In this document: one piece after another, positions 28,718-53,366 of the stretch
Position numbering within the stretch: position 1 is the first letter of the stretch
Layout of the letters: each line of letters starts with the position of its first letter
Assembly: GCA_000002445.1 (NCBI GenBank)
Contig: AL929603.2
Coordinates: forward strand, 512,001 to 576,000
Reading direction: 5' to 3'
Source of the DNA: Trypanosoma brucei
Lineage: Eukaryota
DNA: 64,000 nucleotides
Notes under the pieces: model-generated
The model's database searches: none
What the model saw: only the letters and a program-made list of their open reading frames with translations
Told to the model about the DNA's origin: nothing
Program-made: the position numbers and the translations under genes

Positions 28718-30916
28718 ATGGGGTGTGGTGCGTCTTCTACTCAGTCAGAAGATGGCATGCACGAACCCATACCCCCTATGGAAATGGTGCGCAAGCAAAT
28801 TGCAGCCGCTCAACCAGAGCAAAACGGAGTTAAGGAGGGTCAATCGAGTAAAAAGAAAAGAAGTGGTGATGATCCCCCTGACGAGTTTGAGGAACTGACA
28901 GTAACCGCACTTCCACAGCGGTGGCAACGGGACTCGACCTACAAGTGCGGGTATCCCATGATCACGGGCGACGAAGTGAAACCATGCTTTGAAAAGGGTT
29001 TATTATACCGTATTGTGAAGGGTGACACATGGGCATTCTACAATGATACGCGCACGTACGAGATGTGTGTTTCCTTCACCTTCGGAAGGGATTCGACGGT
29101 GCGTGGTATGGGCAACACTGTCATCACCAACCTGGAAGGCGGGGAAATCCTTGCAGAGGCCTCAATATACCCCTGTGAGACGGCCATATTTGTGAGAGGG
29201 AGATTCAGCGGATTCCGGAGTAAGATAAAGGCACAGCCTCTCTCTGACGAGATTCTGAAGGCAAAGGTTAAACAATACGACAAGTACATACAAGAAGATT
29301 TGGCGAGGGTTAATGCTATGATCAATGAGAATGATACCGATGACGCTATTCTTGCGAAGTGTGTTGAAGGACCCACACCTTTCATTGACATTAGGTTTCC
29401 CCCCAACCAAACTTCCATTGAGCGCGGTGCCGTGTTGCCCATCATGACGATTCCATGGGCTCGTCCCGACATGTACCTCCCTTTAGGTTTTCCTCCCCAA
29501 GTCCGCCTATTCCGCAGTGCAATCAGTACTGTGAACATTGAACAGGGAGATCTTGGGGACTACTGGATTATGTGCGCAATCGCCTCCCTTGAGGATGATA
29601 CGGAACGGTTGCGTGGGATGTTCAGACATCCTGTCTCATGTGAAAAAACGGCTAAAGAGCGCGCGGTAGGGGCTTATCGCGTCACGCTTAACAAAAGTGG
29701 ATGGTGGCATTCCGTAATTGTGGACGATTATCTTCCCGTAGTTGGAAACAGACCGAAGTTTGCGCAGTCCCTGAGTGACCCGTGTGAGGTGTGGGTTTCT
29801 ATTCTTCAAAAGGCCTACGCAAAGGTGCATGGAAGCTACGTGAATATTGTTGCAGGTGATCCACTACACGCGTTGCAGGATTTCACAGGCTACATATCGT
29901 CGAGGTATGACTACATACTTGATCCGGAACCGGGCCTCGAAGAGAATGAAATATTAGAGCGGTTAGAGAAGTATGACCAGCAAGGTTTCAAAATTATCCT
30001 TAGTACCCACAATGCAAAGACAGATAACCCAAATGTGGATGAAACATACAGGGAGGTGGGCCTGCTGGCAGGTCACGCATACCCGGTAAAAGCCGTTCGT
30101 TACTTCGCTAGTGAAAATATTGCCCTGCTGCAGATACGCAATCCGTGGTGTCGCGAAACCGAGTGGAAGGGTGAGTGGGCCAATGGCAACGCGGAGTGGA
30201 AGTCCCACCCAGAAATAGCAAAAGCCTGTGAAATAAATGCGCAGGACGGTAGTTCCTTTTGGATGTCCTGGGGGGATGTACAGAAGTACTTCAATGGATG
30301 TGGTGTTCTTTTCCGCTACCCGAGGAGCGTTGACTATCGTGTTCGTGGTGTCTTCCGAGGCGACATTCCCAGTGTGTCCATCCTCATCAGCGTAAACAAA
30401 ACAATATCATTAGTCTGCTCTCTCACTCAAGAGGACCGCCGAGGAACGAAGATGGCGGACGATTATCCCCCAATTATGTTAAGTTTGTGTGGTGGTGATC
30501 GCCTCTCCGACGATATGGAGGTGGAAAAGAGCACCACTACGGAAGCGGACTACCCCGGCGAAGACTTAACTTTCGTCCACAGCCGTGATGTTGGTATGAT
30601 GTGCACGCTTACGCCCTTCAAGTCACCGTATTTATTGGTGCCACGCATCATTACAGGACGTGATGAGGAGCACCCGTATGTTATCGGACTGTTGTCTGAA
30701 GCGGAATTTGGTGCAGACCTGAAAGCAGAGTTCTTCAGCGTCCCAGCGAACTGCGAGGTCTTCCGGAACGCCAAGTCGTTTGCCTTCCAAGGAGATGTGG
30801 TGGAGGCGAAATTCCAAGTGCGCACGCCGGATTGTCGTTTTCCCACGGAGTATAACAGCACTGTGATAGTAAAGGCCAAGAAGGGCGACTGGTATGTGGA
30901 AAATAAAAAAAAGTAA
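28718..30916 (+). CDS. Calpain-like cysteine-peptidase family protein (CALP) with N-terminal dual-acylation motif MGCGAS; catalytic Cys replaced by Tyr
   Basis: 732-aa ORF starting 'MGCGASST' (Gly2 myristoylation plus Cys3 palmitoylation consensus, as in CAP5.5-type calpains). Domain I(K): 'GLLYRIVKGDTWAFYNDTRTYEMCVSFTF...GMGNTVITNL...ASIYPCETAIFVRGR'. Core: 'IRFPPNQTSI', 'QGDLGDYWIMCAIASLED' (C->Y), 'GHAYPVKAV' (His kept), 'IRNPWCRE' (Asn kept). Confidence 0.88.
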   Translation: MGCGASSTQSEDGMHEPIPPMEMVRKQIAAAQPEQNGVKEGQSSKKKRSGDDPPDEFEELTVTALPQRWQRDSTYKCGYPMITGDEVKPCFEKGLLYRIVKGDTWAFYNDTRTYEMCVSFTFGRDSTVRGMGNTVITNLEGGEILAEASIYPCETAIFVRGRFSGFRSKIKAQPLSDEILKAKVKQYDKYIQEDLARVNAMINENDTDDAILAKCVEGPTPFIDIRFPPNQTSIERGAVLPIMTIPWARPDMYLPLGFPPQVRLFRSAISTVNIEQGDLGDYWIMCAIASLEDDTERLRGMFRHPVSCEKTAKERAVGAYRVTLNKSGWWHSVIVDDYLPVVGNRPKFAQSLSDPCEVWVSILQKAYAKVHGSYVNIVAGDPLHALQDFTGYISSRYDYILDPEPGLEENEILERLEKYDQQGFKIILSTHNAKTDNPNVDETYREVGLLAGHAYPVKAVRYFASENIALLQIRNPWCRETEWKGEWANGNAEWKSHPEIAKACEINAQDGSSFWMSWGDVQKYFNGCGVLFRYPRSVDYRVRGVFRGDIPSVSILISVNKTISLVCSLTQEDRRGTKMADDYPPIMLSLCGGDRLSDDMEVEKSTTTEADYPGEDLTFVHSRDVGMMCTLTPFKSPYLLVPRIITGRDEEHPYVIGLLSEAEFGADLKAEFFSVPANCEVFRNAKSFAFQGDVVEAKFQVRTPDCRFPTEYNSTVIVKAKKGDWYVENKKK

Positions 30917-52976: not shown

Positions 52977-53366
52977 ATGGGTTGCGGTGGCTCAACGACT
53001 TCCGTCACATTCATCAACGGCCGGCCGACTGTTCAGGGCGATGAAATTGCGAAGGGTTTTAATGAAGGAAATGGTCTCCTCTTCCGAATTGTTAACTCAA
53101 GCACTGGTCGCTGGGCGTATTATAACGATACGTTGGATTATGACATGCATGTGAAAGTTACCTTTAGCGAGGACTGCAAAATTAAGGCACTTGGAAAGGC
53201 AAAGTTGGAGCGTTTGAGCTCTGGTGAAAGTGTGGTGACTGTTGTGGTAAAACCATGCGCAACAGAATTATTTATTGAAGGCACTGTGAATGGATATAAG
53301 GCAAAAATGGATGCCATTCCCATTACTGATGGAGACAGGCGCCGCAGGGGATCTGGCAGGAAATAA
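52977..53366 (+). CDS. Small kinetoplastid calpain-related protein (SKCRP), MGCGGS motif; paralogue B with basic C-terminal extension
   Basis: 129-aa ORF, about 90% identical to the 50244 ORF. Long internal stretches are nucleotide-identical (e.g. 'ccgactgttcagggcgatgaaattg', 'ggttttaatgaaggaaatggtctcctcttccgaattgtta', 'ggtcgctgggcgtattataacgatacgttggattatgacatgcatgtgaaagttacctttagcgaggactgca'). It ends '...DGDRRRRGSGRK' versus '...DGDRQ' in paralogue A. Confidence 0.82.
   Translation: MGCGGSTTSVTFINGRPTVQGDEIAKGFNEGNGLLFRIVNSSTGRWAYYNDTLDYDMHVKVTFSEDCKIKALGKAKLERLSSGESVVTVVVKPCATELFIEGTVNGYKAKMDAIPITDGDRRRRGSGRK

What the first reader, a model, noticed from the sequence alone, without database searches (positions are those of the whole stretch)
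28718..53366. Graded N-terminal acylation codes across the calpain-like family: MGCGGS x2, MGCGAS, MGCIQS, MGLFLS, or none
Five of the seven calpain-family ORFs start with Met-Gly: MGCGGS (50244 and 52977), MGCGAS (28718), MGCIQS (36865) and MGLFLS (34235). Four of those have Cys3 (N-myristoylation plus palmitoylation consensus). One has Gly2 only (myristoylation only). The 19583 and 24256 genes have neither. This looks like a family diversified mainly in membrane- or cytoskeleton-targeting signals attached to a common domain I(K) module. Such diversification could sort paralogues to distinct compartments, for example flagellar membrane versus pellicular cytoskeleton.
Basis: partly seen in the sequence, partly recalled or inferred. 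Interest (0 to 1): 0.55.

Follow-up and report, generated by a model that had tools for sequence, protein, structure and literature searches.

The report
Known acylation motifs on trypanosome calpain-like proteins
The Met-Gly(-Cys) starts are real lipid-anchor signals on seven calpain-related genes of Trypanosoma brucei chromosome 1, but the motifs and their role in membrane targeting are already published, so only one small evolutionary detail may be new.

Summary
The window is T. brucei TREU927 chromosome 1. The seven ORFs match the annotated CALP1.1, 1.2, 1.3 and SKCRP1.4, 1.5, 1.6 and 1.7 proteins exactly.

Five start MG and fit the N-myristoylation consensus. Four of those have Cys3. CALP1.1 and CALP1.2 have no such motif. 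One correction: the real ATG of CALP1.2 is at 24277, because 24256 is a TTG.

- Dual-acylation motifs in this family, acylation-dependent flagellar-tip targeting of CALP1.3, and a G2A mutant of SKCRP1.6 (TbSMP1-1) that loses the membrane are all published.
- So is acylation-dependent sorting of the homologous Leishmania SMPs.
- Acylation grade alone does not choose the compartment. Three dually acylated paralogues localise differently, and unacylated CALP1.1 is also tip-enriched.
- The domains are only 32–49% identical between subgroups. The genes also differ in architecture and stage expression, so the family did not diversify mainly in its signals.

One possibly new detail: acylation state is conserved within orthogroups, except that SKCRP1.5 has Cys3 only in T. 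brucei. Eighteen other trypanosomatid sequences are myristoylation-only.

The parts
19583..23023 (+). CALP1.1 (Tb927.1.2100), 1146 aa. It starts MSEFEL with no acylation motif. It has acidic 34-aa tandem repeats, then DUF1935 (nt 21035-21394), then Peptidase_C2 with the catalytic Cys replaced by Ser (LGDSW).
   Evidence: Closest relatives also lack MG.
24277..26325 (+). CALP1.2 (Tb927.1.2110), 682 aa. It starts MSSRNG with no acylation motif. It has DUF1935 plus Peptidase_C2 (LGDSW). 24256 is a TTG and not the start.
   Evidence: (exact match to the annotated 682-aa protein).
28718..30916 (+). CALP1.3 (Tb927.1.2120), 732 aa. It starts MGCGAS (nt 28718-28735), a myristoylation plus palmitoylation motif, followed by a 70-aa linker, DUF1935 and Peptidase_C2 (LGDYW). 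It is a published flagellar-tip membrane protein.
   Evidence: Literature. The T. vivax orthologue starts MGCAAS.
34235..34657 (+). SKCRP1.4 (Tb927.1.2150), 140 aa. It starts MGLFLS (nt 34235-34252), with Gly2 and Ser6 but no Cys, so myristoylation only. It has DUF1935 only. It is an epimastigote / salivary-gland stage marker.
   Evidence: Orthologues start MGLFQSK, MGSSGSK and MGSPYSK.
36865..37257 (+). SKCRP1.5 (Tb927.1.2160), 130 aa. It starts MGCIQS (nt 36865-36882), a dual-acylation motif, and has DUF1935 only. It is an epimastigote marker. In this orthogroup, Cys3 is found only in T. brucei.
   Evidence: Orthologue N-termini. T. vivax synteny.
50244..50615 (+). SKCRP1.6 / TbSMP1-1 (Tb927.1.2230), 123 aa. 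It starts MGCGGS (nt 50244-50261). It is an orthologue of Leishmania SMP-1 and is up-regulated in procyclic forms. The published G2A mutant loses the membrane.
   Evidence: (PDB 2FE0, E = 6.8e-49).
52977..53366 (+). SKCRP1.7 / TbSMP1-2 (Tb927.1.2260), 129 aa. It starts MGCGGS (nt 52977-52994). It is a tandem paralogue of SKCRP1.6, 86% identical in protein. DNA similarity is confined to the CDS plus about 26 nt upstream.

Best explanation
This is the chromosome-1 cluster of kinetoplastid calpain-like proteins (CALP1.1–1.3) and small kinetoplastid calpain-related proteins (SKCRP1.4–1.7, also called SMPs) of Trypanosoma brucei.

Proposed mechanism:
- In five of the seven, the initiator Met is removed and N-myristoyltransferase attaches myristate to Gly2 during translation. 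The consensus is G2, a small or uncharged residue at position 3, and Ser6.
- In four of them, Cys3 is then S-palmitoylated, which turns weak, reversible membrane binding into stable anchoring on the inner leaflet.
- The lipid anchor supplies membrane affinity. It is necessary for peripheral or flagellar membrane localisation.
- The choice of sub-compartment (flagellar tip, pellicular membrane, whole surface) depends on further determinants in the DUF1935 domain, linkers and partners, and on stage-specific expression.
- CALP1.1 and CALP1.2 lack the anchor and behave as soluble or partner-recruited proteins.

Shown here: the motifs, their position at the first ATG, and their conservation within orthogroups.
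Shown in the literature: myristoylation-dependent localisation of SKCRP1.6 and dual-acylation-dependent localisation of CALP1.3.
Inferred: actual palmitoylation of SKCRP1.5, 1.6 and 1.7, and myristoylation of SKCRP1.4 and 1.5.
For: - Identity: all seven translations match annotated T. brucei TREU927 proteins exactly, named CALP1.1, CALP1.2, CALP1.3 or 'calpain-like protein (fragment)'.
- Domains: DUF1935 in all seven and Peptidase_C2 in three.
- Motifs: the five MG starts fit PS00008 and are the first in-frame ATG.
- Family-wide: 46 of 150 DUF1935 representatives start MGC plus the consensus, 12 more fit the consensus without Cys3, and 85 start with Met but not Gly.
- Orthogroup conservation, from an NJ tree built without the motif columns: the SMP-1 group has MGC in all 13 sequences. 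The SKCRP1.5 group is myristoylation-only in 18 non-brucei sequences. The SKCRP1.4 group is mostly myristoylation-only. CALP1.3 relatives have MGC, and CALP1.1 and CALP1.2 relatives have none. Gly2 and Ser/Thr6 stay fixed while positions 3–5 vary.
- Structure link: SKCRP1.6 matches L. major SMP-1, PDB 2FE0, at E = 6.8e-49 with the MGCG start aligned.
- Literature: dual-acylation motifs in CALP groups 1 and 3 (PMC4181241). CALP1.3 is membrane-bound by dual acylation at the flagellar tip (PMC9481589; PMC8141408). TbSMP1-1 G2A becomes cytosolic. Calpain-like proteins appear in the predicted T. brucei N-myristoylome (PMC1885993). SMPs are sorted by acylation plus other motifs (PMC4372256). SKCRP1.4, 1.5 and 1.7 proteins were detected by mass spectrometry.
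Against: - No lipid was measured here.
- I could not open the primary papers (Ersfeld 2005, Liu 2010, Tull 2004 and 2012, Emmer 2011, Wright 2016). Their content is taken from papers that cite them.
- Palmitoylation of Cys3 in SKCRP1.5, 1.6 and 1.7 and myristoylation of SKCRP1.4 are predictions from the consensus.
- Spliced-leader sites were not available. Polypyrimidine tracts and AG dinucleotides lie upstream of every ATG, which is compatible with the annotated starts but not proof.
Confidence: 0.9

Rival explanations
1. Strong form of the first reader's idea. The acylation grade (none, myristate, or myristate plus palmitate) is itself the address code that sends each paralogue to a distinct compartment, and the domain I_K module is essentially interchangeable.
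For: - Acylation state is conserved within orthogroups.
- G2A abolishes membrane localisation of TbSMP1-1.
- From my own knowledge, not checked here: for T. brucei calflagin, the myristate-only C3A form stays on the pellicular membrane, while the dually acylated form goes to the flagellum (Emmer et al. 2009).
Against: - Three MGC proteins in this window have three different published localisations.
- Unacylated CALP1.1 is flagellar and tip-enriched and is found in rafts.
- SMP-1 orthologues with the same motif are flagellar in T. cruzi and Leishmania but on the cell-body membrane in T. brucei.
- The motif is stated to be insufficient for flagellar targeting, and 'other sequence motifs' are required.
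- DUF1935 domains are only 32–49% identical between subgroups.
Confidence: 0.12
2. The MG(C) motifs are not at the mature N-terminus. Translation starts at a downstream Met because the spliced leader is added inside the annotated CDS.
For: - There are downstream in-frame Met codons at residue 14 in CALP1.3, residue 19 in SKCRP1.4 and residue 26 in SKCRP1.5.
- No spliced-leader data were available to me.
Against: - The MG start is the first in-frame ATG in all five genes. In SKCRP1.6 and 1.7 the next Met (residues 58 and 57) would cut the DUF1935 domain in half.
- The MG start with Ser6 is conserved in orthologues from Trypanosoma to Leishmania, Phytomonas and Strigomonas.
- In T. vivax the start is again the first ATG after a stop.
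- Dual acylation of CALP1.3 is reported experimentally.
Confidence: 0.03
3. The shared MG starts are simply inherited from a common ancestor of the paralogues and carry no present function.
For: The genes are paralogues in one cluster. SKCRP1.6 and 1.7 are a recent duplicate pair (89% DNA identity over the CDS).
Against: - Between subgroups the proteins are only 32–49% identical.
- Even so, Gly2 and Ser6 are invariant across dozens of species while neighbouring residues change.
- The G2A phenotype is published.
Confidence: 0.03

Closest known systems
T. brucei CALP/SKCRP family (Ersfeld, Barraclough & Gull 2005; Liu, Apagyi, McLeavy & Ersfeld 2010)
   Same: These are the very same genes, with exact protein matches. 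[quoted passage not shown]
   Different: Nothing differs. The finding re-derives the published description from raw sequence.
Leishmania small myristoylated proteins SMP-1, SMP-2 and SMP-4 (Tull et al. 2004, 2010, 2012); PDB 2FE0 and 1R75
   Same: - SKCRP1.6 and 1.7 are SMP-1 orthologues (E = 6.8e-49 to 2FE0, with the MGCG start aligned).
- SKCRP1.5 belongs to the group of the L. major protein solved as 1R75.
- SMPs are sorted to different compartments by acylation plus other motifs.
   Different: - T. brucei SMP1-1 is reported on the cell-body membrane, whereas Leishmania and T. cruzi SMP-1 are flagellar.
- T. brucei SKCRP1.5 has Cys3, which its Leishmania counterpart lacks.
Calflagins / FCaBP and HASPB: dual-acylation-dependent flagellar or surface targeting in trypanosomatids
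   Same: They use the same MGC…S type of N-terminus and the same logic of myristate plus palmitate for stable binding to the inner leaflet or rafts.
   Different: The folds are unrelated (EF-hand or hydrophilic repeats rather than the DUF1935 beta-sandwich). Details of the calflagin C3A phenotype come from my own memory and were not checked here.
SH4 domains of Src-family kinases (e.g. Lck MGCGCS, Fyn MGCVQC, Yes MGCIKS, Src MGSNKS)
   Same: A paralogous family shares one body and varies between myristate-only and myristate-plus-palmitate N-termini that tune membrane microdomain residence. MGCIQS and MGCGGS resemble these motifs. This comparison is from my own knowledge.
   Different: The proteins are unrelated. 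This is an analogy of mechanism only.

Membership tests
Kinetoplastid calpain-like / SKCRP (SMP) family | Presence of the kinetoplastid-specific domain I_K (Pfam DUF1935, PF09149) | tested here: met
   All seven proteins match, with E = 5.9e-27 to 1.4e-38 and above the gathering score. There are exactly seven copies in the window.
Kinetoplastid calpain-like / SKCRP (SMP) family | Identity with the annotated T. brucei CALP1.1–1.3 and SKCRP1.4–1.7 genes | tested here: met
   Exact full-length matches to XP_001218910, 911, 912, 915, 916, 923 and 926 on the 1,064,672-bp TREU927 chromosome. UniProt identifiers tie them to the SKCRP names.
Calpain (peptidase C2) proteases | Peptidase_C2 domain with an intact Cys-His-Asn catalytic triad | tested here: not met
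   The domain is present in the three large proteins. At the position of the catalytic Cys in the G-D-C-W motif, the sequence reads LGDSW, LGDSW and LGDYW. His (GHAY/GHVY) and Asn (RN.W) are kept. These are pseudo-proteases, as published. The four small proteins have no protease domain at all.
N-myristoylated proteins (NMT substrates) | N-terminal M-G-{EDRKHPFYW}-x-x-[STAGCN]-{P} at the true start codon | tested here: met
   Met for 5 of 7, and each is the first in-frame ATG. Not met for CALP1.1 and CALP1.2.
N-myristoylated proteins (NMT substrates) | Covalent myristate on Gly2 in the cell | not testable with these tools
   Only indirect evidence exists: the G2A mutant of TbSMP1-1 loses the membrane, and dual acylation of CALP1.3 is cited from Liu 2010.
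Dually acylated (myristate plus palmitate) proteins | Cys at position 3 next to the myristoylated Gly, and S-palmitoylation shown | tested here: inconclusive
   Cys3 is present in four proteins. Palmitoylation was not measured here. The palmitoyl-proteome paper could not be opened.
SMP-1 orthogroup | Close similarity to L. major SMP-1 over the full length, including the MGC start | tested here: met
   SKCRP1.6 against 2FE0 gives E = 6.8e-49 over residues 1–123. It clusters with the MGC-bearing orthologues.

The most novel reading that the evidence does not exclude
The Cys3 of SKCRP1.5 (MGCIQS) is a gain specific to the T. brucei lineage.
- The positional orthologue in T. vivax starts MGSSDSK, in a syntenic locus.
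- Orthologues in T. congolense (MGARTSK), T. cruzi, T. grayi, T. theileri, Leishmania, Novymonas and Strigomonas all lack a Cys at position 3.

If Cys3 is palmitoylated, an epimastigote / salivary-gland stage protein switched from reversible, myristate-only binding to stable dual-acyl anchoring in Trypanozoon. This could relocate it to raft-rich flagellar or surface membrane in the attached stage that is peculiar to T. brucei. It would be a natural experiment on how a single residue re-addresses a lipid-anchored protein.
Probability: 0.35. Interest if true: 0.4.

Novelty: already known. Interest (0 to 1): 0.15.

Why it matters
The general point is textbook knowledge for this field: lipid anchors on calpain-like and SMP proteins help build distinct membrane domains of the trypanosome surface and flagellum. 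It has already been used in practice, for example with SMP1-1 as a flagellar bait and CALP1.3 as a tip marker.

This check adds little beyond confirmation:
- It shows from sequence that acylation state is a conserved property of each orthogroup.
- It shows that acylation grade cannot be the sole address.
- It flags one lineage-specific Cys3 gain in SKCRP1.5 that could be tested cheaply.

Tried and rejected
- **Extra copies.** I looked for extra or decayed DUF1935 copies in the long AT-rich spacers with a family HMM on all six frames. None were found beyond the seven.
- **CALP1.2 relic.** In alignment A1 the 'AGC' of CALP1.2 (MSSRNGSLAGCYV) lines up with the MGC of the others, which hints at a decayed motif. 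I rejected this because the CALP1.2 relatives (T. congolense MLLDSGSMSG…, another MSHISGK…) show no MGC.
- **SKCRP1.4 and 1.5 as recent duplicates.** Only low-complexity matches link their regions and the proteins are 34% identical, so they are old paralogues.
- **Papers not held.** Liu 2010, Emmer 2011, Tull 2004, Wright 2016 and Goldston 2014 could not be opened. Those sources are therefore cited only second-hand.
- **Not attempted.** No myristoylation or palmitoylation predictor is available in this toolset, so only the PROSITE pattern was applied. Structure prediction was not run because it would not bear on the claim.
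Full report
**What the window is.** All seven translations match annotated proteins of Trypanosoma brucei brucei TREU927 from first to last residue. They lie on a 1,064,672-bp record and are named calpain-like protein 1.1, 1.2, CALP1.3 and 'calpain-like protein (fragment)'. The accession order (XP_001218910, 911, 912, 915, 916, 923, 926) and the UniProt identifiers in a salivary-gland proteome tie them to Tb927.1.2100, 2110, 2120, 2150, 2160, 2230 and 2260. These are CALP1.1, 1.2, 1.3 and SKCRP1.4, 1.5, 1.6 and 1.7. 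SKCRP1.6 and 1.7 are also called TbSMP1-1 and TbSMP1-2. The surrounding genes fit this locus: zuotin/DnaJ, YIF1, PRP38, a Raptor-like gene, NAP, a thioredoxin-like gene and the beta/alpha-tubulin array.

**Check of the observation.** The N-termini are as described:

| Gene | Start (nt) | N-terminus |
|---|---|---|
| CALP1.1 | 19583 | MSEFEL |
| CALP1.2 | 24277 | MSSRNG |
| CALP1.3 | 28718 | MGCGAS |
| SKCRP1.4 | 34235 | MGLFLS |
| SKCRP1.5 | 36865 | MGCIQS |
| SKCRP1.6 | 50244 | MGCGGS |
| SKCRP1.7 | 52977 | MGCGGS |

- The coordinate 24256 is a TTG produced by the bacterial ORF rule. The first ATG, which is also the annotated start, is 24277.
- Each MG start is the first in-frame ATG after a stop and fits PROSITE PS00008.
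- Pfam finds DUF1935 (domain I_K) in all seven and Peptidase_C2 in the three large proteins. A family HMM finds no further copies in the window.
- Of 153 mechanical ATG-ORFs in the window, only 7 fit the myristoylation pattern, and 5 of those are these genes. All 4 MGC starts are these genes (Fisher p = 6.6e-7 and 1.6e-6).

**Evidence from relatives.**
- An exhaustive profile search returned 236 DUF1935 proteins. Among the best 150 representatives, 46 start MGC with the consensus, 12 fit the consensus without Cys3, and 85 start with Met but not Gly. The three-state N-terminus is therefore a family-wide feature.
- A neighbour-joining tree built without the motif columns separates the small proteins into orthogroups.
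- The SMP-1 group (SKCRP1.6 and 1.7, and L. major SMP-1, PDB 2FE0, E = 6.8e-49) has MGC in every member.
- The SKCRP1.4 group is mostly myristoylation-only: MGLFLSK, MGLFQSK, MGSSGSK, MGSPYSK and MGGGSSK. One member from an unknown organism starts MGCGGSK.
- CALP1.3 relatives start MGC, and CALP1.1 and CALP1.2 relatives never start MG.
- Gly2 and Ser/Thr6 stay fixed while positions 3–5 drift. This is what selection for NMT recognition predicts.

**The one irregularity.** In the SKCRP1.5 group, 18 sequences outside T. brucei have Ser, Ala, Gly or Leu at position 3. They come from T. congolense, T. vivax, T. theileri, T. melophagium, T. grayi, T. conorhini, T. cruzi, T. rangeli, Leishmania, Novymonas, Strigomonas and unnamed assemblies. 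Only T. b. brucei and T. b. gambiense (a sequence also deposited for T. b. equiperdum) have Cys3. The T. vivax locus has the same gene order: CALP1.2, CALP1.3, SKCRP1.4, SKCRP1.5, Raptor, NAP. Its SKCRP1.5 starts ATG GGC TCG (MGS) at the first ATG after a stop.

**How it most likely works.**
- Established biochemistry of NMT and DHHC acyltransferases predicts co-translational myristoylation of Gly2 in five proteins. It also predicts S-palmitoylation of Cys3 in four.
- CALP1.3 is described as membrane-associated through N-terminal dual acylation at the flagellar tip (PMC9481589, citing Liu 2010; PMC8141408).
- TbSMP1-1-GFP is peripheral, and its G2A mutant is cytosolic.
- Calpain-like proteins are in the predicted T. 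brucei N-myristoylome.
- The catalytic Cys is replaced in all three large proteins (LGDSW, LGDSW, LGDYW). They are pseudo-proteases, as published.

**Why the 'graded code' reading goes too far.**
- The three dually acylated paralogues with published localisations go to different places: flagellar tip, pellicular plasma membrane, and surface including flagellum.
- Unacylated CALP1.1 is also flagellar and tip-enriched and was found in the raft proteome.
- SMP-1 orthologues with the same MGC motif are flagellar in T. cruzi and Leishmania but on the cell-body membrane in T. brucei.
- The motif is stated to be insufficient for flagellar targeting, and 'other sequence motifs' are required in Leishmania.
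- The family also did not diversify mainly in its signals. DUF1935 domains are 32–49% identical between subgroups, and architectures differ.
- Expression differs by stage. SKCRP1.4 and 1.5 are epimastigote markers. SKCRP1.6 is up-regulated in procyclic forms. CALP1.1 is up-regulated in bloodstream forms. CALP1.3 is translationally up-regulated in procyclic forms.
- The SKCRP1.6/1.7 duplication covers only the CDS and about 26 nt upstream. The untranslated regions are therefore free to diverge.

**Comparison with what is known, and novelty.** The finding restates the published description of this gene family (Ersfeld 2005 and Liu 2010, through the review PMC4181241) and of the Leishmania SMPs (Tull 2004–2012, through). 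Novelty is therefore 'already known'. The only item I could not find described is the Trypanozoon-specific Cys3 in SKCRP1.5. It is minor and remains a prediction until palmitoylation is measured.

**Limits.**
- No lipidation predictor and no spliced-leader data were available.
- Lipid attachment itself cannot be tested with these tools.

Noticed in passing
window 36865-36882; relatives P0180-P0195, P0074, P0077; locus L001 10001-10393: In the SKCRP1.5 orthogroup, Cys3 (MGCIQS) is confined to T. brucei. Eighteen other trypanosomatid sequences have MG[S/A/G/L], so they are myristoylation-only. The T. vivax copy is the syntenic orthologue. This looks like a lineage-specific gain of a palmitoylation site.
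   Followed up: partly
P0077 (T. rangeli, 153 aa) versus window 34235-34255: A T. rangeli protein with an SKCRP1.5-type body (57% identical to Tb SKCRP1.5, 40% to SKCRP1.4) starts with MGLFLSK. This is the same heptapeptide as T. brucei SKCRP1.4. It could be convergence or a 5' gene conversion from the neighbouring paralogue.
   Followed up: no
window 19750-20646: CALP1.1 carries 6.7 near-identical 102-bp (34-aa) acidic Ser/Glu/Pro-rich tandem repeats, followed by 1.8 copies of a related 99-bp unit, ahead of its DUF1935 domain. Copy number differs between strains: relatives in the same 90% cluster are 1078 and 700 aa long.
   Followed up: partly
window 9080-10543 (- strand): A 487-aa ORF with a Pfam VSG_B domain (E = 3.9e-25) lies on the opposite strand to all neighbouring genes, in a chromosome-internal position. 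GC skew is reversed across about 8000-14000.
   Followed up: no
window 50218-50610 versus 52950-53340: The SKCRP1.6/1.7 duplication is 89% identical but restricted to the CDS plus about 26 nt upstream. The flanking UTR and intergenic DNA are unrelated. This fits the different stage expression of the two copies.
   Followed up: partly
window 21500-22450, 24810-25750, 29380-30300 (Peptidase_C2 regions): All three large calpain-like proteins have lost the catalytic Cys (LGDSW, LGDSW, LGDYW) but keep the His and Asn motifs. They are pseudo-proteases.
   Followed up: partly
window 41230-46473, 48164-49120 and 58482-64000: The calpain cluster is interrupted by a Raptor-like gene (Raptor_N domain) and a NAP-family gene, and it is followed by the beta/alpha-tubulin tandem array. 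The CALP1.2–NAP part of the order, including the Raptor-like gene, is the same in T. vivax (L001).
   Followed up: partly
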